The translations under genes were made by a program, and so were the position numbers. The notes beneath the pieces are model-generated. The model had not been told where the DNA came from. It made no database searches and saw only the letters and a program-made list of their open reading frames with translations. A DNA stretch of 57,214 nt, the filler included, from Dirinaria sp. TL-2023a (taxonomy: Eukaryota), in assembly GCA_051941275.1 (NCBI GenBank). It is 4 parts of 4 records of this genome, joined end to end, with 100 filler letters (N's around TTAATTAATTAA, not from the genome) between each part and the next. Parts side by side here need not be neighbours in the genome. Positions count along the whole stretch, not along the records: positions 14,354 to 28,592 come from JAVEBF010000614.1; 3 more parts are not named here. The stretch is one strand, 5' to 3'. Below are positions 14,254 through 43,027 of the stretch, piece after piece; positions within the stretch are counted from its first letter, which is position 1; each line of letters opens with the position of its first letter.

Positions 14254-14353
14254 NNNNNNNNNNNNNNNNNNNNNNNNNNNNNNNNNNNNNNNNNNNNTTA
14301 ATTAATTAANNNNNNNNNNNNNNNNNNNNNNNNNNNNNNNNNNNNNNNNNNNN
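14254..14353. other. Artificial contig spacer (44 N + TTAATTAATTAA + 44 N)
   Basis: Exactly 100 bp, carries a six-frame stop linker, identical to the other two spacers. Confidence 0.98.
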
Positions 14354-15160: not shown

Positions 15161-18100
15161 TCATCCCTCCACTCCATCTTTCCCCTCTTCAAACAGCCTC
15201 ACAAACTCCAGGTTATCATCGATCAGATCCTGACAAGCCTTCTCCAGATCAAAAGCCCTAGCTTTGCTCGCCTCGGCTTTCGCAGCGACAACGTTATTAG
15301 CTCGGACGTAGGTGTGGAACTTTTCGAGCAGAGACTGCTCTGTGATGCTATGCAGCCGCTTCATGATACACCTATCGGCTCCTCGAAGCAGATCTAGAAG
15401 CTCATCGAGGCGGTCTGCGATCTTTTCTGTCGATGGCGTGTCCTGTAATGGCGGCAGAGACGTCGTGCCCGTATATGCGAATTTGACCATCCGTTCGAGG
15501 GTCGATGGTTCAAGGTCTTGAATAGCGATGGTCGCGTCTGGCTTTAGATTCTGGCCCCAATCGCCGGAGAACTGAGCTCTGCAATAGTCCGAAACGCCGG
15601 CCATGCAGACTTTGTGGGCCGCAATTCGAGTACCTTGAGCCTCGAAGGTGACGTCCAGCATTTCGCCTTGCTCCCAGAGTCGGCGGTAGTTTTGGATTAA
15701 GTAGTCCGATGTTGTCAGATCTTCGCTGGCCCTGGCGGGAGGCTGGATGTGTCGAGTGATAACTGCGTGGACGCCCAAGGCTTTTAATAACTTCTCATAG
15801 GGCGTCAAAAATCTCAAAGCATTCCTGTATGGAGCTGGATCTGCTGGGGAGTTGATGCACATGCGGTTAGCGGGCAAGAGATCACTCTTGATTTGATCAT
15901 GGGTAATCAGATCAAGATCAGTGGTGTCAACGTTAAGCCATATTGATTTATCCTGAACACCCGGTATTGCAGCGGTTTTATTGAAATTCTCTTGCAAGTA
16001 GCAATAACATGCTTGGATATCTTTCAGAAATTCAACGATCTCAGCAGAAGGAACGTCGGATCGTATCTCCAGCAGGTATAGGAGATGGTCATAGACGGTC
16101 TTAATGGACGGGCTCGCACATGCAGGCAGACATTCGTATATGTACTCCACTGGTGGTTGTTCCAGTATTGGCTGCTGACTCCAGCAGATGCGGACATTGC
16201 TGGCCTTGGCTGCTTCGAGAAGAGAGCAAGCTGTCCGGGATTGAGCAATTTCGTGCATATGAGATTGCTGATAAACCATCTCCAAGGATGCATCACTCCG
16301 CACTCGGAACATTCGTGTCTTAGCAATGTCAGCCCACGTCTCCGCTTTCCAGAGGCGAGAATTCTGTCTGTCAAAGGCCAAGTACTCAGCCACTGTTGAT
16401 GCATCAGCGGCCAACGATGAGTCATCGCTGGTTGCTTCATAGCGTGCGCTGATTGCGCGAACGCATTCAAGATATGCCTTCTTGGCTAGGCAGTCCGTTT
16501 CGTATCGTCTACGTAGTCCATTGAAGATCCAGTACTTCCGCAAGTTGCGGAAGTCTGGATGAATGAACCGATTCTGCTGCTGCTGCTCTTGATTAAAAGC
16601 TGCTCTGAAGACCGGGACTTCGTTGTCGTACAAGTCTTTCGCTCGACGTAACTTGCCCGTAACGTCGGGTGCTATTCGTGCTGTGGATGTAATGTTACGT
16701 CTCTGCAAGCACAGTAGCATCTTCGAAAAGCGGCTGTGGTCGGCGATACCTAGAATTTTGGGCAGATAGCCCTCTAAGTAGTTTCTCCACACTACCTCTG
16801 GGATCATCACCTCCATTTTTAAGGTGCTGAAGATTGATTCTCTTCCTGCTTTCCAGGATGGATGGATGAACCGATCCGCGTTTTTTAGCCAGGGTAACAG
16901 AACTAAGTCCGCATGTCCACATAATAGAGCATCTTTCGCAGCAAGAAAGTAACTCTCGTCTTCTGAGCCTTTCTTTGCAGCGCGAGGCCAGATAGGCAGT
17001 GCATGGAGTATGTCAACGTTGTCAACGGCCAAACCATTTTTGATACAGCTAAAAAGGATCTCTCGCAAAACCTTTGCGCTGTCAGCGATAAAATTTTAGT
17101 ATATCACCTGATATTTCAACACTTACTCCGACAGAATTCGGACTTAGACTTTTGCGAAGGTATGCAGTCAGATCCGGTTCGGATGTCTCCTTTATCTTTC
17201 GCAATGCACGCTCTAATCTCTTGAACGAAGCAACCTTCTCCATAACGCTCTCTTCCACCGCCAAAGTGGCTGGAATACCCTGCGCGTCCAGCAATTTCAA
17301 GCTCGCGATTTCTTGGCACACCTTGGTTTGTTCTGCGCTGTTCGGACTGACGATGCACGGCCCGTGCTCAAATTCATAGGGACTCAGGTATTTCCACCGT
17401 CCATCAACCAGAGCACGATAGATCGGGCAATGCGTCAAATTGGCTTTGGCCAAGATATGTGCAACACTCTTGTCCGATTCTCCTGAATCTGTCCGCGTGG
17501 CCTCTAAACGGGAGTTTAGATACCCCCACAGACTTCGATACCATTTATCCTGGGACGCTCCGTCCAGTGGTCTTTTTACCAGCGAGTCGGCGCGAGACAA
17601 GATGCGCCCAATATCATGCATCTGCATCGCTCGAACGTTTAAGGGCGCGTCCAATAGATTCTGTAAAAGGGGCTGCGGGAGACTACGGGATGAACTTGAC
17701 TCGAAGGGCTTCGAGTCCACTAGTGTATCCGCAGCGAAGGAGAATATCTCTACTTCTGCCACGAAATTCGGCACCAGCGCCCAATCTTGCGTTTCAGATT
17801 GCCTGTCGCTCTCCTCAACTACTTTTAAAAGCTTTAGGGAGCCATCATGCATTGGCAAAATTCTGCAGCCGCTCAATGGAACCATGGAGGTTTTATCTTC
17901 TGCACTGGATTTCGGAATGACAAGAGAGAGCAGTTTTCCTTTCGTTTGTGCCCTTTTCTCGGCCTCAATCGAGGCGAGAAAAGCTTCTAGGCGGGCACAA
18001 TTATTCTCATCCTGAAATAGCTGGCATAGATAGCGAGAATCCAAGGTAGTGACGTTCCTCCCTCTGAGTGAAGAGATTCGCGACATAAGTTTGGGAGAAG

Positions 18101-21100
18101 GCCGGACAAGTCGGGAGCACAATGTAGCAAGTAAAGGCTGAAGTGCGGTCTCGAAGTCCTCCGGAAGATTGTCAAATTGTGCTTTTGATAGTGTAGTGAC
18201 CTCGTGCAGTTTCCTGCTCCCGCCCTCCCTCGTCTTCAAAGGATTTGCGGGACTCGTCAAGGTCGCTGAGTTCAATGGAAAAAGAGGGTATTGTTCATAC
18301 TTAGACTCCGCAAGCTTCTCCCAGAAGGCTTGGGTCACCATTTGGCCATGCGAGGAGGTAGCGCCAGATGCAGACGGCCAGAAAATAAAAGCTTGAGGAC
18401 CAAGATTTGGGGCTAGATCTTTGAGAAATTCGATATAGAGTTCGGGTACGCAGCATTCTAGGAGCCACCGATTCCAACCTGAGTTTGGATCATGCTCTTC
18501 ATTGAAGGTGATTGTTCGACGATCACCCGTCATGCCGAAGGTGGCGTTAATTGACACCGGAAGTCCGATTTCGTAATTTGTTGGGAGCTTGTTGTACAAT
18601 CTACTTTTCCGGTTCTCAAACTTTTCAGAAACATAGCCGTCTACCCGCTTGACTGTTCGACTGATGCATGCAGCAATCCCGCACTCCGTTACTTTGAGTT
18701 TCCCTATGATGGGCGTAACATGATCTGGCGGAGCCCTGTCTATATCTGTCATACCAATGCGCCATAGCTCCTCGAAGTGTGGCTGACTATGGGTTGTGCC
18801 AATCATGCGTATCTGTTGAAATATCTCACCTGCAGAAGCATCGGATCGCGAGGCTTTTATTGCCCAAATGGCCTTGCTTTGGCCTCGAATACTAAATGAG
18901 ACTTCGCTAATGGACCGAAGAAATTGCATTGATGCCCGCGCGGTCTCATAGTACTCGACGAGCAAACGTTCGATTTCTATGTGCAGAAGCGGCTGAGCTC
19001 CGGCGAAAGTGCCATTGAGAGGCATGCGGAATATTGTGCCGTGATAGAAGTCCTTGTCCTTGTTGTAAGAGTACAATCCGTCAAAAGGAGCAAGCTGATC
19101 AGGATATAGTAGTCGAACTTTGCTCAAAGCCATCTTAATGCCAACCTTACGCTTTAAGTGTTTGTTCTTTGGGAGTAACTGCTGTTTGGGATCCTATATC
19201 TGTCTTAGTTACCACTCATAAGACCATAGGCGATAAATGTTCAGCATTTTGCAGGTTGCTCTGCCATGATCCAAAAGCCGGCACCACAGCTTAATGCGAT
19301 GAAGTTTGACTTAATAGTGAAGATAATCAGGGCCATCTAGGCTGCTGAAAATGTAGCTCAACTTACCAAAATAAGCAATGAATCGCCTGACAAAATCATT
19401 GGATTGTTTGTGAAGTGATACATAGACATGGATCCGCGTCCAAAGAGGCCTATCGATGTATTGCTCTCTAACTTTCCACCGCGACCAATGTCTTTGTAGC
19501 CTTCGAAATCTTTCGAAGAGAAAACTGTAAGGCAAAGTTAGATTTGGTGATCGGACGGTAACCGTCACATAAGTAGCATACCTCCATCATTATAAGCACA
19601 CAAAGCGGCTCCCTGTAAATCTCGCATCTTCGTGGTCAACAGCCTCTCACAGCCGTAATGCCCTTCTCTGCACAAGTCCAGAGACCATGAAATCCTTGTA
19701 GCTTGGCAATCCTCGGCATTCGCAAGAAATTCGCTGAAAGTACTTTGAATATGATAGCGTCTCAACGTATCGCAGATGATGGTCGTCAGTCGCTCACGTG
19801 GGATGTATTCGTCCTCGTCTTCATCATCAATCTCTATCTCCAGCCTAGCAGCCCTTTCTTGAACAGTTTCAATTCCTAGCTTCTCGGCAAGCTGCGAAGA
19901 GATTGCTGGATGTACAAAACGCAGATTCGCTGAAGATACCAAAGCGATTTCTCCGGTGACAACGTCGCACATCCGTTGTAGCTTGCGCTCCGTATCTGGT
20001 ACCATCAACTTAGTGGCATTCTCGTTGATCTCCGGCAGTCGTGAGGCTATCTCCAAGACAGCAACAGCCCTGCTCAGCTCTGCTTCGTCCAACGTGTAAG
20101 TCTCAGAAGAATCTATGCTTGATTGGACGTTGAGAAGGTCAGCTAGAGAGGGTTCTTGGCGGACGCTGAGGGCTAATAACAATTGATCATGCATCTCGGC
20201 GAATACTCCATCAACTTCATCGAGATATGGGTCTAAGGGGAAGAGCTTTAACAAGCCACCAGGGAGGAATGCTTGACATGGTAATAGATAAGTTCTCCGC
20301 ATGCCTCTAATGCATTTCCTGGATCGTAATAAGGAAAGGTCCAAATTTGCGTGGTGCATGTATTTCAGGACTTGGTCTACTTTCCCCGCTTGCTGTTCCT
20401 TAAGACTGGCGTCCAGCTGGCCAACCAAGAGTTTTTGGTCCAAGATTGCGTCCCATCCGAGCAATTTTGTCCAGTCCGGCTTGACTGTAGCCTCAAAAAC
20501 CCCATGAACGTGGTCAACAAGATTACGCTGGTCAGCTCCACGCGACTCGTTTGGCGAAAGTAGTGTTAGGGGTTTAACGGGCCTGGGAATAGCTGGTAAC
20601 CAACGGAGGTTCCTCATCTCAGAAATCGAGTCTAACGAAGAGAGAAGCCGTGGATCCAATGGCAACGCCAAGAGCATCGATGTTTTTTCAACAAGCTGGT
20701 GCGGGTCATTGCAAGTTGCATAGTAACGTGCGCGCTCGAGTGGCATGTCCCACGATGCATTGTGCCTCAGACCTAATTTTGAGAGAACTGCTCGATGTTT
20801 GCAAAAGAGCTCATTTTCTGGGAAAACCTTCTCGTCGGTGGAGGAGAGCTTTGCCATATCAGACGTAGGGTCGATAAGTTCGTGTACATAACCGTAAGTC
20901 CGAGCACGTTCGCCGCCCTGATGTTGCACTGGGATGATAGCATGCTTTTGCATCAGTTGTGCCCAGTGCTGACTTTGAAAACGTGACTGATCAAGAGCGT
21001 AATCCACAATATTGTACTTCATGTTCTCGATTGCTTTATCAACTCCATCCTCCATTGGCATCGCCGATGGGATTATGTGGCCGAACAGGAGTGTTTCTAT

Positions 21101-24100
21101 TGGAAGATTTTCAACAAGCCCAAAATAGCTATTGAGGTAGTGCTCTGTTGCACTAGGAAACTCATAAAACGCAATTCCGACGATGCCATAGACTGGCGGC
21201 AATGACGACGGTATTAAGACCGCAGTCTTCGACACTTCAATGTCGGTTCTGGAGGTACTCCACGATCTACATGGTGCATCAGCCAGTCAGTTCGTGTCAT
21301 TCTAAAACAGTTAAATGACAATATCAACAATTTCTTTTGTGAGCAAGATCACCCATTGTCGTCAGTACACGGACCTCTCTATTGTGATGGCTCATTACCT
21401 TGACTTTTTAGGGTTCGGACTGGTAAAAGGTGCCAGACTTACTTGAATGGACGAGATGTCTCGAGTCTTTTAAATAACGGCAGTTGCCGCATCTGCACAG
21501 CTATTTCTTGTCTGAAGTCCTCAAGCACAGGCTGTGGCAAAGCGTGCGAGAGCCTCTCAAGCTCTATCAACAACTCAAATTTAGCGTTCTCCGGAGCCTG
21601 AGCAAGGCTGACTCTGTTCGCAACGAGCCACAGAACGAAAGACTCTAGGCGATTTGACGACGCAATCGACATGGAAGGATTGGTGAGCGCTAGAGATCGC
21701 AGAAGGGTAATAGCCTCCGATGATAACACGTCACAATCGAGGATCTGCTGATGTAGTGTTTCTTCTTGGTTGATGGCGGCTACAAGGTGCCGATAGAAAG
21801 ATTCATTTTCTTCTATGATCAAGATTGGAGAACCTCTGCTCTGTGGCACGAGCTGGCGGATATGACCGCTCTTGACCGGGATTAGCCAGAGCTTCAAAAG
21901 CATTGGCAGGAATTCTTTCCCTTTTTCATATCTTGCCACGATCCATGTCCATATGGAAGTAAGGCGCCAATCCTGCTCTCTGTCACGCGGGATAGATCCA
22001 CGCAGTACTTCGGTATTTAGGTGCATCGGATACATCATTGGCCAATCGGATTCTAAGCTTTCTAGGCCACGATATGCGATGTTCTTTGGTATTGCCGAAG
22101 CAACATCTTTGTGAATGAGCGCCGACACACAAGGTGTAAGCCGGTTAAGGTCTGTGGTTCTCTCGCAGCGTGAAGGCGTGAATAAAACATTTCATCTGTA
22201 TCTCTCGGCAGTAACAGCTTTTGCCGTCCCATTGCAGCGGCTGCTCCATCAAGCGTCGGCCACAGCTGCAGTTGATCGATCTGTTGGTATGCAGCAAGTC
22301 TTGTAGAGTCACTAGGCGTCCCGCCGATGAGATCGAGAAGGCAATATTGCAGAAGCATCGGATCAAATGGCGTTGAAATGACAAGATTGTTTTGACTGCA
22401 GAGGAATAAACGGACACTGTCGGATGTGGTAAGTCGTAAGGACTGTCCGTATGTTTCTGTCAGAAGTTGAATTTTGTCGAGAAGAGTGGGTGGCAGCCAC
22501 ACCGCTGGCAGTTGGACTGAGGCTAAAGAACTCGAATAAATTTCCGCTGTGTCACTGGCCACGGAACCAAAGTACCCTTGCGTTAACGGGATGCAGTTGC
22601 TCGTTGAGCACCAGACCGGTAGATCTTCCCTAATGATATTCCTGGTTACAAAAGTGTCTAATTTGTTCCAAATAGACGTCGGCTCGCTTTCAATGCGAGG
22701 CCATAGCTTGAAGTCTTCTTCATTCCAGGACCTGTCTCTGCGAAACACTAGGAGATTTGTCCAAGCCTCTGCGACACAATTGGAGAACACGAAGTCATTC
22801 CACTTAGTTTCCATGTCCAAATACCCTGGAGTTTGCCCTGCTGATGATAGACGACCGCGGTCAGGGGTAATCGAGAACAAGCCGTGTATGTGTACGGGAT
22901 GATTAGTCTCTATAGGGAGTCGTAGGACAGAGAAGAGACGACCACTGAAAGACCCTGAGGCCCATTTATCCTGCCGAAAGATTCAGTACATGCCGCTCCC
23001 TCGGTAATCATGACGTTTTAGAAGAATTACCATTGGTGCTGCAATCGCGACCCACGCAAAAAGCTTTTTGCAGCGAGACCATTGATCCAATTCCGTGTCA
23101 CTGCTGGAACTCTTCATGAGGTGATGCACAAGGTATGAGTGGGTAGTTTCCCCCTCATTTTCAGCGAAAGACATATCCACATAGAAGGTCCTCGAACCGG
23201 CGATATGGCCGGTACTAGATGTAAGAGGAATGCATATGTTTTGAAAGTCATTTGGAACCTCGCGACGAGCCCTGCAAGAGTCTGTCAGTCTTCAGCAAGT
23301 AAGAGCTTGATGCAGCCGTACTGATCACTGATTGTATCGTGCCCTCGGATCTCGACTTTCCACAGCACCTCTTTGTCTATCCTGACCACCATTCGTCGAA
23401 TATGCTTTAGAAAAAGCAGTCCGCCCTGCTTCGCTTCATAGCCAAGCAATGACAAGGCTTCGGAGATCTGGTCTGTAGTGACTTCTCGATCGACAATCTT
23501 ACTCGTCGCCGCCTGTGCTTTGGTCCTCAGCGGGATCCTGATTATGGTGCCATCAAATGGCAGCGAGCGCGGTATATCGAAAAGACTGAAGGTCTTCAGG
23601 TGATTTTGAATCTCTATTGAGCCTGAGTCCTTCACTACATCCCAAGTTGGGCCTCCCGGAGTTCCACAATCAACCGACCACCTCTCATGAGGATCAAGAA
23701 TGAGTAACAAATTTCTGCTATAAACCCACGGTCCATCGGTCCAATGATAGCACTGATCATTGCTACTCAGTAGTATTTGGCTTGGCCAGGACGGTTTAGT
23801 ACTTACGGAATTGAAGCCTTGACCAAATTTGCCGGTTGAAGCTGGATCGTGCCGCTTTCGAGAGTCGCCAATGCTCGAAAGGCTCTGGAAGTCTTGGTCA
23901 CTGAATACGCTGTTGTTGCGTGCCAGCAAAGCTGGGCCATGGTACTGCTTTAAGTCGTCGTGCAGCAAGGCGTCGTCATTGTACGTATTGGAATCAAGCA
24001 CGTATTCGATTTCGGTAGCCTCAGCATCATCCGCGTTTTGGAGAAGCTCGCGGAGGCATGTAGCTGCTGGGTATGAGTCGCAAATTTGCCGCAACGCTGT

Positions 24101-24202
24101 GGTAATCGGTTGATGCTAGCTAGTTGCTTAGTGACGTCCTAGATCTGCACTTAGAGGGAATATCACCTGCTGGAAGTTTTTCACTGCTGCAGGAGGAGCC
24201 AT
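15161..24202 (-). CDS. Giant sacsin-like protein: two sacsin-repeat GHKL/Hsp90-like ATPase modules plus C-terminal BTB/POZ domain (roughly 2,800 aa, ~9 exons, one apparent 1-nt frameshift at ~22184-22187)
   Basis: Module 1: PITTALRQICDSYP..LRELLQNADDA..NNSVFSDQDF..GKFGQGFNS..GTIIRIPLRT..GRLFSVLRLPIETNHPVHIHGLF. Module 2: ERLTTIICDTLRRY..FSEFLANAEDC..YNDGVFSSKDF..IGLFGRGSMSMYH..GTIFRMPL..LPVSINATF. BTB: LDVTFEAQGTRIAAHKVCMAGVSDYCRAQFSG. Eight GT..AG introns join the ORFs in phase; one junction needs a frameshift. Confidence 0.85.
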
Positions 24203-27923: not shown

Positions 27924-28281
27924 TTCAAGTCGAGCCAAAATAATTTTCAAAGATAGGAAAATCAGGCTTTGGTCTTATGCCATTGCCTGGTCTTGAACTC
28001 AATCAAAATGGTCTAAACGCGTACTCGTACTAGTACAGTGCAGACCGCGGCAGCGCTAGGTCTTGGCATCAGAAGAAGACAGAAATCTGCCCCCCGCTCA
28101 GTCGGGAGCTCTCTCAGGGTGGCCGCTTTTAGCGAGCCGGCTGGGTGAGCAGGGGTGACTCGACACCCCATCAGGGTGATCAGCACCTCAGGCCGAGTGA
28201 GCAAAGCTCATCCTTCACCTTTTCACTCACTCAATTCTTCAACGTCCGAGCAGCTCAAAAAGTGCGCGCACATCCTCACGG

Positions 28282-28592
28282 TCTTTGACATAGTCTCATT
28301 CATGTGATCTTGAAAATGAATGTCGTGATGAAAACAAAAAAAAAACGATGCGTCGTCAATTCTCGCTCTTTCGATCTCAAAATCGTCATCGTTTTTTTCA
28401 TTTTACTCGTTCTCGACATTCTTATCTATTCTGTGCGATCATGAGTCGAAGAGAAATCTCGCTCGAGAAACTTCTGAAGAGAGTCTAAGTCAATGATTAC
28501 AAACGAGACGCTCATCAGACAGAGAACAGCATTAAAAACAATATTAAATATGTGAAAAAGACTCTGAAAAATCAGAATTGAGCGTTGAGACG
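28282..28592. repeat. Hypermutated (RIP-like) relic at contig end, probably the edge of a repeat or transposon
   Basis: 311 bp, ~36% GC by hand count, zero CC and zero GG, rich in TC/GA, no ORF, ends at an assembly break. Confidence 0.6.
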
Positions 28593-28692
28593 NNNNNNNN
28601 NNNNNNNNNNNNNNNNNNNNNNNNNNNNNNNNNNNNTTAATTAATTAANNNNNNNNNNNNNNNNNNNNNNNNNNNNNNNNNNNNNNNNNNNN
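28593..28692. other. Artificial contig spacer (44 N + TTAATTAATTAA + 44 N)
   Basis: Identical 100-bp linker. Confidence 0.98.
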
Positions 28693-29740
28693 TCCCCCAC
28701 AACCCCCCCAACCCGTTGCCCGGACGCGCAGCGGTCCCGAGATACGGCACGAGATTCGTGCCATTATTGTATCGCGTGCTGTTCCTGCCTGCTGCGGTGA
28801 AATTCCCCGCGTCGTAGATTACGCCCGTGCTCGATGCTGGATTTGCTGCTGCTCCTCCTCCTGCTCCTGGGGTTCTATATAAAATTCCAGTGGATGGGAT
28901 TCCTGTGTTGTAGTCGATTATTCCCAAGCTCGATGGTGTGCTTGCTCCTGTTGCGATTATATACGGGCTACTGATAGGGGTTGTAGCCAGAGTTCCATAT
29001 GCGGGCTGGGGAGTAGTGGTAGGAGTGCCAACTGGCGCGGCGGTCGAGGACATGGCGTGCTCGCCTACCGTGCCCTCGGAGTCTATGGTCAGGGCGTACT
29101 GTTGGGTCGAAGCGGCCGATGATGGAATTGTACTTGATAAGCCCGTTATTACTGTGCTTTGCATTCTTGGGGCGCCGAGAAGTACGACAGAGGCGTTAGA
29201 CGCCGTTGACGAGTTCGTTATTCCCGCGTTTGGAGTTGATGGAGGTGGAGATGATGCAGAGGATTTTGGGGTTTCGGCTACTCTCAGTGTAGCCACTGGA
29301 GCTATTTTCGGGGAACTCGATGGCGGAGTAGTAGTTGGAGACGATTTCGATGCTCCGCCTACTTGTATTGTAGCCACTGGCGCAATTTTCGGCGGATTCG
29401 AGTGGGAAGCAGTAGTTGAAGAATCATTTTTTGCCAGCTGCGGTGTTACAGTGCCCGTTGCTCCGGATGTGGCTGGGTGCGCGACGCCCGACAGTCCCAT
29501 GAGCCGTAGATTTTGAGAATTTTGTAGTGCCGCAAGAGGAATTCCTGTACTGAATGTGGAGCCAACGACCGGATTTGCCATGATGGCTCGGTTCTCCTTC
29601 TGCGCCGCATGATTTAGAGGACTTAGAGACCGTTCACGCTGAGCGCCATGTAGATTTGACCTCCCTTCATGAGGCGAGGCAATGATTGCTGTCGTTAGAA
29701 GCCATCCAGCACAAAGGAAAGCGTAGATGAGCTTGCACAT
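28693..29740 (-). CDS. Secreted Ser/Thr/Pro-rich cell-surface protein, possibly GPI-anchored; 3' end truncated by the contig end
   Basis: Signal-peptide-like MCKLIYAFLCAGWLLTTAIIASP, mucin-like S/T/P/A body, N-glycosylation sequons, internal duplicate (PKIAPVATIQV / PKIAPVATLRV), and a last readable stretch PYLGTAARPGNGLGGLWG resembling the start of a GPI signal. Confidence 0.7.
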
Positions 29741-30879
29741 TCTTCGCAAAGTGATAGCGACAGACGTGTATTCATGGACAAACTGAAAAGGACAGACATT
29801 GCGAGATCTCGCAAGTTGGAGGAGAGGTCTATGCTTCAAAAGAGGTTCAAACTCACTTGCATCTAATCGCCAATACTCCGGAGTACATGCAGATCCGCAG
29901 AGCGACCCAATCACCTGTCATTCCACCCCATATTAATAGTTTCATCAGCATCATGCGCTTGTTGCGGGTGTAAAAGGTTTGGGAGACAACAGGCGACTGG
30001 CACGGCAAGCGCGGGTACAAATGAAGCGACAACCTCAAATGTCCCAAGAGACGGCGGGAAAACATGATTGAATACCGACATCAAGAAATGCAGCCTTCAT
30101 CGAGGGGAACATCGATCTATTGGCTGTGTGCATACATCCGATTTCAGCCGCCCCAGGCAGCCTGGAATCTTTTCATCTTGAGTGCTGTATGTAGCTGACG
30201 TGGATGAATATGTTACAGAGACAAATATAGGAGATAGTGACTTCTTCAGACGAGAATGAGATAATGGATATAGATCGAAATGGACTCATCTATCCCATAA
30301 TTTGAAAAGGAAACTGAATTAGGAGAGGTGTCCTTCGAAAGGTTTGGTTATGGGTCAGTTTGGGTGTATGAAGGCATATCGAGACAGAGCACGAGATACT
30401 TCGGCCGTTGCAGTGTCTTGTCTCCGCGAGCCAGCTTGCCTGAGTTTGTGGGTATCTGATGGGATACATCATTTCTCACTGTTCTAAAGCAGAAGATGGC
30501 TAGATGTATAAAGACTGATCGATCACTTGACGCGAGGGATTCAAAGTCACCCACCCCCCACACTACGTCATCCCCCACAATCCATGAACAGCGCATTAGG
30601 TTTGCTCATTCACATGTGTATATAGCCCACCTTATCTTTGTATGGAGTATCGCGACACAGCAAATTGACCTTCCTCAAATATCGATCAATTCCTGAGATT
30701 TCGAAGATCATTCCTCATCTGACCTGATCACATCAGAGGCTTTCACCTACCAATCAAAGTTTCTAGTGACCTCTTGAACACCCCAACACCTTCAGACACC
30801 AATCTCCTAAGAACAAATCTCAACCAATACCGTCCGATCTGTATCGCAATCGACTGAATCCTCTAACCTCCCCTCGGCA

Positions 30880-40331: not shown

Positions 40332-40550
40332 AGATCTCTTCAAATGAAACATTCAATGTTTTGCTTGGAAGTTGCTCGACCTGCGAAGAGCAGACGTAAA
40401 CAAGATCGAGGATATGAAGGAGAAATTTTTACCAACTGAAAAGTAGTGTAGAAAGAAGCTGCGTATATCAATGCTACTGCATGTAAATGAGTCTATAGTT
40501 ACGTGGCATGAAATAAGAAGTAAGATCTCTTCAAATGAAACATTCAATGT
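40332..40550 (+). repeat. Exact 28-bp direct repeat AGATCTCTTCAAATGAAACATTCAATGT at 40332-40359 and 40523-40550
   Basis: Read directly; copies start 191 bp apart and weak similarity extends on both flanks. Confidence 0.85.
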
Positions 40551-41134
40551 GTTGTAGTCTATGCTAAAGTTGCACAGAACAGTTACTAGATTACAGTAGC
40601 AAGTCACTGCAAGTGATCGCGGACAAGAAAAGATATACAGTAATGCATGTTTTCGCATCTCAAAGAAACGAGCAAATGTCCTTACTGGGGCATAGGATCA
40701 GTGCTGCCTCCAGTGGGACGTCTTGTGGTGTGTTGTGAGGTATGGATAGGATCGCTGAAGTTCACATCGTGACTGTTTGGATGTAGACTCGCAATTTTGG
40801 TACTTCATTTTTTCTGGCTATTCGAGCTTGAATAATGTGTAGGACTTGACTCTTATCATCCATTCAATGCCAACGGCCTCGGGCCAGTTGGCTTTAAACT
40901 AGCGATAACTCTAATTTAGACGCCAACGCCGCTTAGTTGCCGCCGGCAAGCCCATATTAGCGCCTGGAGACATTAAAGTGAAGAGCCCAAGGCTAAGGAG
41001 GAATCGGGACAGACTTTAGTTTGGAGACGTTCCATTTCAGCCGTCAACCTCTTCAAACCAACGTCTCAGGATTGAATGTGCGATGTTCGCGTTGATGTAA
41101 CCGTTCGGTGAATATCCTCTCAGCCGATAAAGCC

Positions 41135-42927
41135 ATGGAGGGTGTCAATGTTCCAGAGCTCGTTGAGCGACTGGCTAGTGAGGAAGACGCGGTGCGTAAG
41201 ATGGCCGTGTTCAAGCTCCAGACGAATGTTGGGGATCCTTCTTTCGCCGAAAACTTCATAGCAGAAGGAGGTTCCATTAAATTACGGTACTTGATGCTCC
41301 ATGCTTCAGGCAATACGCTTGCCTATAGCCTGACTTCTTTCTCGCGTTTGCTCGAGGTTGACAAAGGCTGGGAGTACATCAACCAAGACCTTGTGGATCG
41401 AGTATATTTGCCAGTCGTATATTGAATAGCGCGGGCTGAAACTTGCATAGGTTGTTGAATTAGTGGTACAGCACCCTCTTGTGAATATTCTCCGTGGTGC
41501 CATGTCTATCCTTGTAGCAATCGTCTCACATCCTCATGATCCCTCAAGACCCGATGCCTTTGGCTTCAAGGCGCTCAAACCCGCCATAACTCTGTATCCG
41601 CAGTTCCTCGAGATGTTAGTCAGTCGGCTGTCATCTGCCGACCACGCCCTTTGCGCCAACGCTCTTCAGCTCATCAACTCGCTGATGCGCGAAGCCATAA
41701 GCAGTGACTCCGACTCCGAGTGGCCCAAGTTCATCAAAAACCTACAGGACCTAGGAGTCATCAAAGCCGCGTATAGCCTCATGCTCAGCAGCTCACTACA
41801 GGACCTTGCACATCCTATCCTCGAATTCCAGACTCTCTCCAAAGTTCTTTTAGGAAAATGGCATTCAGTGCCACTGGACCTTGACAAACCTGAGCACCGT
41901 CGGACGCTCAAATGCTTACATCTAGCTTCCAACCCGGCTCCTTCCGCGGAGCCTTCTTTAAACAGCAACACAGACGAGCCGAAACGACGCCATCACCCGA
42001 CCAAATGGCGGCGATTAGGCTTCGAAACCGAGTCCCCAGCGTGGGAGTTCGAAGACACCGGCTACCTTGGAATGATTGACTTGACACACTACGTTCGCAA
42101 ACATGAAGACGCCTACCAGAAGGTTCTCCTCGAACAAGCATCCAAACCGTGGGAAGACCGGTGCCCGGTTGCGCGCGCGTCGCTCGCTGTAACTGTGCTG
42201 TTGTACGAACACTTTGAGGTCGATAAAGCGGACATTAACGACGCAAAGGCCGGGCTGGTGCTTGAATCGCGCGCCAACTACGAAAAGATCTTTAAACCGC
42301 TACTCCTACAATGGCCAAGTCTACATGTGTGCGGATTGCAGGCTTTTCTCCGCCTCTGGAAAGCCACCCGTGCAAAGCAGCATGACTTCGTCAAAATTGT
42401 AGACCTAGTCCGCATCCTGCTTGAGGCGGTTGTAGGCGCAGCACCACGCACGAAAGAGGTCAAAGCCGTCGAAACCGAAATGGAGGAATACTCTTTGCCT
42501 CGCTTGAGGCAGTTGCAAATGGAACTGATTGAACTGACATACGAAGACGCCTGGGCCCATCACCTCCGGCAAGTGAAAGACGAGTTGGCCCACGAAGCCC
42601 TTCAATTCGTCAAGGAACAGCGCATCCGCTGCCTGCTAGCCGGCAGCTGGTTTCCGAACAAGCTACAGTACAAATCGGACGGCGGGCCAGTGACGAAGGC
42701 TAACCTCCGGCCCCAAGTACCCTCAAGTTTCCGCTTCGTGCGCCTCTCCCACAACCGGCGCTACCTGCACTACGCCGATTTCTCCACCCGCGGCGAGGAA
42801 GCACCAGAGCTGGAAAACTTAGACGAGCGCCTAGACCTCAGCGCCGTCTCTTCCGTCGTATCGAACGTATCCACCACCTCCCCACCCTCCTCCAGCGAAA
42901 CCGTCTCCGCAGTCCACCAACACTCCC
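41135..42927 (+). CDS. ELMO/CED-12 family protein (ELMO domain and start of PH-like domain); 3' truncated by contig end; intron 41402-41450
   Basis: GNTLAYSL, HPLVNILRGAMSIL, KWRRLGFETESPAWEF..G.LGM.DL (ELMO domain), RCPVARASLAVT, EALQFVKEQRIRCLLAGSWF, FVRLSHNRRYLHYADF. Confidence 0.9.
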
Positions 42928-43027
42928 NNNNNNNNNNNNNNNNNNNNNNNNNNNNNNNNNNNNNNNNNNNNTTAATTAATTAANNNNNNNNNNNNNNNNN
43001 NNNNNNNNNNNNNNNNNNNNNNNNNNN
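42928..43027. other. Artificial contig spacer (44 N + TTAATTAATTAA + 44 N)
   Basis: Identical 100-bp linker. Confidence 0.98.

What the first reader, a model, noticed from the sequence alone, without database searches (positions are those of the whole stretch)
28282..28592. 311-bp tract with no CC or GG: signature of a CpC-directed RIP-like mutator
Seen: by hand count ~57 C and ~55 G in 311 nt, so ~20 CC+GG dinucleotides are expected by chance, yet none occur. CA/TG and CG remain plentiful and TC/GA is strongly enriched. Established: classical Neurospora RIP converts CpA to TpA, depleting CA/TG and enriching TA, which is not this pattern. Inference: strand-symmetric saturation of CC to TC (GG to GA), i.e. 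a repeat-defence mutator with unusual CpC context that standard RIP indices would miss.
Basis: partly seen in the sequence, partly recalled or inferred. Interest (0 to 1): 0.7.

Follow-up and report, generated by a model that had tools for sequence, protein, structure and literature searches.

The report
CCD-targeted repeat hypermutation, lichen-type fungus
This stretch is the front end of a dead fungal jumping element in which nearly every C standing before another C has become T, the footprint of a repeat-destroying mutation process with a different target from the one known in other fungi, so the usual tests for it see nothing.

Summary
Confirmed: 28282-28592 has 0 CC/GG against 19.8 expected (0 of 100,000 shuffles). 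Its right end is only a contig end. It lies inside a repeat (14 places) that starts near 28061 and carries a broken DUF3435 (Starship-captain-type) gene. Between copies, C>T falls on the first C of CC on both strands: CpC 76/87, CpT 43/135, CpA 19/128, CpG 11/108. The motif is finer than CpC. An intact retroelement compared with a mutated copy gives CCD 53/54 but CCC 2/13, and C-runs end as CTC or TCTC. The first 100-220 bp of the element are spared. A second lichen-type host (Vps36 70% identical) shows the same wipe-out. One RID-like methyltransferase and DNMT5 were found, but no DIM-2. Standard RIP indices call the tract unmutated. Best reading: a RIP variant aimed at 5'-CCD; the enzyme and its timing are inferred. 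The scan noted the CpC signature earlier on other DNA of this genome. My word look-ups found no note of the CCD rule, and ten literature searches found no report of CpC-dominant RIP.

The parts
28061..28068 (+). Left boundary motif of the repeat, (T)CTTGGCA; element end or target-site core, not resolved
   Evidence: Similarity between copies starts here, with unrelated flanks; CTTGGCA is also at the boundary of the element in the second host L120
28061..28280 (+). Spared edge of the element: CC/GG largely kept, fading inward
   Evidence: CC/GG per 50 bp from the left end: 8, 11, 8, 3, 2, then 0; similar fading in L002, L003 and L004
28281..28592 (.). CC/GG-free tract: hypermutated interior (5' leader and start of the DUF3435 ORF)
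   Evidence: against five other copies, C in copy and T in window: CpC 29/39, CpT 41/113, CpA 4/100, CpG 8/94 (sites re-counted across copies)
28441..28590 (+). First 50 codons of a broken DUF3435 (Starship-captain-type) gene with two in-frame stops, cut by the contig end
   Evidence: aligns to residues 1-50 of the DUF3435 protein P0134 (40% identity, E 4e-10); no Pfam hit on its own; P0134 tiles residues 1-575 over other copies
28593..28692 (.). Artificial contig linker N44-TTAATTAATTAA-N44; the DNA to its right is taken to be another contig
   Evidence: the tract ends at the last base of contig C614
27477..27974 (-). Host gene part (Mit_KHE1 domain) next to the element's left end, with normal CC/GG content
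   Evidence: PF10173 E 1.4e-38; an RNA contig of run X1 reaches 27989; CC/GG counts normal

Best explanation
The tract is the interior of a dead DUF3435 (Starship-captain-type) element hit by a repeat-directed C:G>T:A mutator that works like RIP but targets the first C of 5'-CCD (D = A, G or T), with CpT as a weaker second target and CpA and CpG close to background. SHOWN: multi-copy element, transition bias, context, both strands, CCD over CCC, confinement to repeats in the sample taken, spared edge, same signature in a second host. INFERRED: homologous repeats are recognised (as in RIP, before meiosis); the RID-like C5-methyltransferase, with a changed target preference, methylates the first C of CCD; deamination then fixes T. 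Each hit in a C-run creates a new CCD two bases upstream, so repeated rounds give CTC, TCTC, TCTCTC until no CC/GG is left.
For: C1897 to C1757 over 944 bp: 159 transitions, 7 transversions; CpC 76/87, CpT 43/135, CpA 19/128, CpG 11/108; reverse direction 10/316; CpC by strand 33/37 and 43/50; no 5' effect (ACC 21/25, GCC 22/24, TCC 20/21). Intact RT element against two mutated copies: CCD 53/54 and 27/29, CCC 2/13 and 1/6, CG 0/54 and 0/34, CA 2/79 and 5/38. 42 pairs not selected for CC content: CCD 615/1284 against CCC 68/372, Fisher p 4e-26; CpA 7.5%, CpG 3.4%, CpT 11.8%. CCCC became TCTC in 16 of 21 runs and CCTC in 3, never CTTC or TTTC; equal-chance hits predict 50% for those two (p 3e-5). 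In-frame stops in the 32 RT matches: 34 TGA, 9 TAG, 7 TAA (my count). The spared edge fits the roughly 150-bp boundary zone where RIP fades in Neurospora, and the RID pathway mutates inside repeats (10.1101/344036, passages). A C5-methyltransferase is on C1379. Second host L120: CC o/e 0.10, CA/TG 1.02, TA 0.81.
Against: No methylation, cross or enzyme data. Calling the C1379 protein RID-like rests on recalled motifs and architecture; the Atlas look-up gave no answer, and the end of its catalytic domain, where target recognition should lie, runs off the contig. Not finding DIM-2 in a 3105-contig assembly is weak evidence. Not all repeats are hit: 8 of 30 RT loci have o/e of 0.78 or more, and one RT match has 5 TAG stops to 1 TGA, as a CpA-type process would leave. 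Against copy L008, CpT changes dominate in both directions (11/29 and 8/27), with CpC 0/3. The 26-pair set was selected on CC content, so its CpC rate is inflated by design.
Confidence: 0.7

Rival explanations
1. Standing (vegetative) cytosine methylation of transposons at CCD by a DIM-2-like or other silencing methyltransferase, followed by slow deamination over evolutionary time; no premeiotic homology search.
For: The sequence end-state would look the same. DIM-2 could lie in an unassembled part (27.7 Mb in 3105 contigs). DIM-2 methylates non-CG contexts with a CpT preference (PMC13297926, passages), and CpT is the second target here.
Against: Two methyltransferase searches found only C1379 and C712, and none of the BAH loci read looked like DIM-2 (by recall). 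C712 is DNMT5-like, a CpG enzyme, yet CpG is spared. Flanks keep CC/GG and mutation fades inside the element's edge, unlike the spreading expected of heterochromatin.
Confidence: 0.2
2. A cytidine deaminase or UV photoproduct deamination (lichens are light-exposed) acting at dipyrimidines in silent repeats.
For: The two top contexts, CpC and CpT, are both dipyrimidines. No search for deaminase genes was run.
Against: The mutated base is the 5' C and the 5' neighbour has no effect (ACC 21/25, GCC 22/24, TCC 20/21; TCA 8/45, TCG 5/41). UV and APOBEC3-type signatures depend on the 5' pyrimidine and hit the 3' C (recalled). CC became CT in only 1 of 110 CC runs. UV would not spare CCC, element edges or genes.
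Confidence: 0.07
3. Chance, ordinary saturated RIP, or an assembly or sequencing artefact at a contig end.
For: The tract abuts a contig end and linker; the source reads were not seen.
Against: 0 of 100,000 shuffles reach zero. CA/TG is kept and TA is depleted. Longer free tracts lie in other copies, one mid-contig in L120. Contigs of other public runs show both CC/GG-keeping and CC/GG-free versions of the element.
Confidence: 0.03

Closest known systems
Repeat-induced point mutation (RIP), RID pathway, Neurospora crassa and other Pezizomycotina
   Same: C:G>T:A transitions in repeats on both strands; interior hit and edges fading; short or diverged copies less hit (L005, L006, L007, L009); a RID-like gene in the genome.
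   Different: The target is the first C of CCD, then CpT; CpA is nearly spared and TpA is not enriched, so the indices read TpA/ApT 0.34 and substrate 1.31. PMC12543289 (passages) concludes that RIP-like defences share a CpA preference.
Non-canonical RIP-like signatures: CpT in Botrytis, Sclerotinia and Magnaporthe; CpG in Tuber and Microbotryum (PMC4352252, passages)
   Same: Species-specific dinucleotide context; CpT bias was linked there to a RID-specific motif.
   Different: That survey lists CpA, CpT and CpG only (0 occurrences of 'CpC' in its main text); here CpC leads, with a +2 rule.
Chlorovirus methyltransferases M.CviPII and M.CviQIX
   Same: [quoted passage not shown]
   Different: Viral modification enzymes, not repeat-directed; that paper's own bisulfite test lists their motif as CC. 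The two methyltransferase searches of G000 gave no third candidate. Resemblance of motif only.
Starship elements with DUF3435 tyrosine-recombinase captains (PMC11162782; Tangerine in lichens, PMC13486527; passages)
   Same: DUF3435 gene at the element's 5' end, 380 bp from a shared boundary.
   Different: Derelict copies only; right end, cargo, direct repeats and empty site not seen.

Membership tests
Canonical RIP | C:G>T:A transitions dominate between repeat copies | tested here: met
   159 transitions to 7 transversions; 1655 to 193 in 42 unselected pairs
Canonical RIP | Confined to repeated DNA | tested here: met
   16 of 30 RT loci with o/e 0.3 or less, against 10 of 10 baseline stretches at 0.88-1.00; sample only, not genome-wide
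Canonical RIP | Both strands affected | tested here: met
   CpC 33/37 on one strand and 43/50 on the other
Canonical RIP | CpA>TpA preference | tested here: not met
   CpA 19/128 against CpC 76/87; CA 2/79 against CCD 53/54
Canonical RIP | Length and identity threshold (about 400 bp and 80%, PMC3017866) | tested here: inconclusive
   Copies of 165-333 bp and a 68%-identical copy keep more CC/GG, but truncation may postdate mutation
Canonical RIP | Fading over about 150 bp at repeat boundaries | tested here: met
   The first 100-220 bp are spared in the window, L002, L003 and L004; the boundary bin is spared in L120; left end only
Canonical RIP | RID methyltransferase present | tested here: inconclusive
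   One PF00145 gene on C1379, weak similarity to PDB 9BAP (27 bits; recalled as DIM-2); RID assignment by recalled motif, no tree built
Canonical RIP | Acts before meiosis and depends on RID | not testable with these tools
   Needs crosses or pedigree sequencing
Starship | DUF3435 captain at the 5' end | tested here: met
   established by tiling across copies, since the window piece alone has no Pfam hit
Starship | Direct repeats or TIRs and an empty site | tested here: inconclusive
   Shared left motif; no matching right end identified among the loci scanned
Starship | Cargo genes downstream of the captain | not testable with these tools
   The window copy and the other long copies end at contig ends
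Starship | Catalytic tyrosine-recombinase residues | not tested
   Copies are broken; not examined

The most novel reading that the evidence does not exclude
A clade of lichen-type fungi (best named protein hits Physcia and Dirinaria) runs RIP through a RID whose specificity has switched to the first C of CCD, without DIM-2. Their heavily mutated repeats score as RIP-free, so the claim that RIP-like defence is universally CpA-directed is wrong, and comparing RID target-recognition regions across this clade would locate what sets RIP's sequence preference.
Probability: 0.4. Interest if true: 0.85.

Novelty: new variant of a known kind. Interest (0 to 1): 0.68.

Why it matters
RIP is scored almost everywhere by CpA/TpA indices, and a 2025 kingdom-wide screen concluded that RIP-like defences share the CpA preference (PMC12543289). 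A saturating CCD-directed process is invisible to those indices, so genome defence in some lichen fungi may be misjudged. A sharp three-base motif, apparently tied to a single candidate enzyme, gives a direct test of the open question whether RID itself methylates DNA and sets the context. It also leaves Gly/Pro-free relic proteins in public databases (5 of 150 relatives).

Tried and rejected
Direct Pfam scans of the window ORF and of mutated copies found no DUF3435. A word-index search for longer homologues of the mutated ORF found none among 237 candidates; the link came through the less-mutated copy C1897. My first translation was out of frame and was redone. The idea that the CpT excess is an echo of CCC runs was rejected: CTA 15/31 and CTT 39/95 exceed CTC 15/75. 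Equal-chance hits on any CC were rejected. A right end of the element was not found. The DUF7893 search (accession recalled as DIM-2-linked) rang nowhere, controls included, and is uninformative. The Atlas gave no result for the methyltransferase. The five runs had small shares; four were laid, as contigs only, so they give no expression or copy number. Ten paper searches showed no CpC-dominant RIP. Subscription papers such as Clutterbuck 2011 (cited) were not seen, and supplements, including the k-mer tables of PMC12543289, were not read; either could bear on novelty.

Full report
OBSERVATION. The 311 bases hold 57 C and 55 G, no CC and no GG, with TC and GA enriched, CA/TG at expectation and TA low. 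Shuffles give 19.8 on average and never zero in 100,000; Markov simulations of the window never exceed a 157-base free run in 200 tries. The tract ends at the last base of contig C614, followed by an artificial linker, so 311 is a lower bound on its length.

WHAT IT IS. A search of the window's genome with 28000-28592 gave 14 places (14 of 14 candidates scored). Most share a left boundary near 28061 with unrelated flanks. An ATG at 28441 opens a broken ORF that aligns to residues 1-50 of P0134 (E 4e-10), a DUF3435 protein (111.9 bits) named from Lecanora helva. P0134 tiles residues 1-575 over copies on C1839, C2347, C1757 and C1897, and the C1897 piece passes the PF11917 cut-off itself. The tract is therefore the leader and gene start of a derelict Starship-captain-type element; its right end and cargo were not seen. 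The host is a Pezizomycotina fungus whose best named ELMO hit is Physcia stellaris at 72%; the runs that hold part of the stretch are labelled lichen metagenome.

MUTATION SPECTRUM. Over the tract, five other copies give C-in-copy, T-in-window rates of CpC 29/39, CpT 41/113, CpA 4/100 and CpG 8/94 (sites re-counted across copies; copy L008 goes against the trend, with CpC 0/3). In the gene body, C1897 against C1757 gives 159 transitions and 7 transversions, CpC 76/87, CpT 43/135, CpA 19/128 and CpG 11/108, equal on both strands, with no 5'-neighbour effect. Of 1618 alignments at 80-99% identity among fetched loci, 42 were kept so that each segment is used about once, without selection on CC content: CpC 41.2%, CpT 11.8%, CpA 7.5%, CpG 3.4%. 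Sixteen of 30 RT loci have CC/GG o/e of 0.3 or less and 8 of 30 have 0.78 or more; 10 of 10 arbitrarily chosen baseline stretches (94 kb) have 0.88-1.00.

THE MOTIF IS CCD. In those 42 pairs the first C changed in 615/1284 CCD but 68/372 CCC (p 4e-26). An intact RT element against two mutated copies gives CCD 53/54 and 27/29, CCC 2/13 and 1/6, and CG 0/88. In the 26 selected pairs (26 kept of 171 selected from 2506 alignments), CCC became CTC in 53 of 92 runs and TTC in 13; CCCC became TCTC in 16 of 21, CCTC in 3, and never CTTC or TTTC; 2 of 4 six-C runs became TCTCTC. Equal-chance hits on any CC predict half of CCCC ending as CTTC or TTTC. Either the enzyme reads CCD and returns in later rounds, or it moves 3' to 5' and skips a C whose neighbour is already modified; these data cannot separate the two. 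Chlorovirus M.CviPII is annotated with the same motif (PMC9636781, passages), a precedent for the chemistry only.

EDGES AND BREADTH. CC/GG is kept over the first 100-220 bp of four long copies and in the flanks. In Neurospora, RIP fades over about 150 bp at repeat boundaries and the RID pathway acts inside repeats (10.1101/344036, passages). A metagenome scan gave 2 loci from 85 pattern matches, identical to each other over 4848 bp. L120 holds the same element family with the same boundary motif, CC o/e 0.10, CA/TG 1.02, TA 0.81 and a spared edge. Its host's Vps36 is 70% identical to that of G000, with Dirinaria as best named hit at 64%. Five of 150 protein relatives have no Gly and no Pro, from ENA and Logan assemblies, whose hosts are unknown. 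In run X4, several contigs stack on the element and read C or G at several tract positions where the window has T or A.

MACHINERY. PF00145 found one gene (C1379; 1 match of 2 candidates) and TIGR00675 a second (C712). C1379 has a long N-terminal part and a C-terminal catalytic domain that runs off the contig; I call it RID-like from recalled motifs. C712 matches PDB 7R76 (E 5e-20), which I recall as Cryptococcus DNMT5. The BAH loci read look like RSC, SNT2, a BAH-PHD protein and ORC1 (names recalled). No DIM-2 was found, which is weak evidence in a fragmented assembly; Cladonia rangiformis has both RID and DIM-2 (PMC12542154, passages).

COMPARISON AND NOVELTY. It works like RIP but fails the CpA criterion, so I file it as a variant, not as canonical RIP. 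The standard indices miss it (TpA/ApT 0.34, substrate 1.31, against 0.71 and 1.31 for the whole window), although RIPCAL defines a CpC index (PMC2621366, passages). PMC4352252 reports CpA, CpT and CpG signatures (passages); PMC12543289 concludes a shared CpA preference (passages). The passages read in the two lichen papers report RIP by GC content or LRARs, and neither main text contains 'CpA'. I also read passages of PMC5602860, PMC3017866, PMC5555474, PMC5737583, PMC13297926 and PMC11162782; none described CpC-dominant mutation. I read no paper whole and no supplements. The scan's own notes describe this CpC signature on many other pieces of this genome; they are AI notes and are not counted as evidence. 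Two word look-ups including 'CCD' returned nothing.

VERDICT. RIP variant aimed at CCD 0.70; standing methylation with deamination 0.20; deaminase or UV 0.07; artefact 0.03. Interest 0.68.

Noticed in passing
window 14254-14353, 28593-28692, 42928-43027: Three identical N44-TTAATTAATTAA-N44 linkers: the window appears to be four joined contigs, and the ORFs listed into them (28637-29917, 41451-42983) are cut at the linker.
   Followed up: yes
window 27989-28061: The element's left end lies about 70 bp from the furthest point reached by an RNA contig of the divergent KHE1-like gene; its spared edge may overlap that gene's promoter.
   Followed up: no
window 40333-40680: Mildly CC/GG-poor stretch (7 against 21.9 expected in 40351-40650) with a segment of about 28 bp present twice; possibly a small mutated relic.
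   Followed up: partly
window 15161-24115, minus strand: Large sacsin-domain and BTB-domain gene region.
   Followed up: no
L015 1-507 (C1757): An LTR-like repeat interrupts the DUF3435 copy; its end matches about 20 places at 83-97% identity and keeps CC/GG here.
   Followed up: partly
G000:C2403:766-1167: RT match with 5 TAG stops and 1 TGA, the pattern of CpA-type mutation; a second, canonical process may coexist.
   Followed up: no
L005 317-768: A 450-bp imperfect palindrome (78% self-complementary) with CTTGGCA-like motifs near its ends; possibly a MITE.
   Followed up: no
P0124, P0128, P0150, P0188, P0255: Database proteins with no Gly or Pro but with Trp; probably mutated relics called with TGA read as Trp (inference).
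   Followed up: partly
L007 (C1839): Internally deleted, diverged copy joining the element's first 620 bp to a region also found on C1897; largely unmutated.
   Followed up: partly
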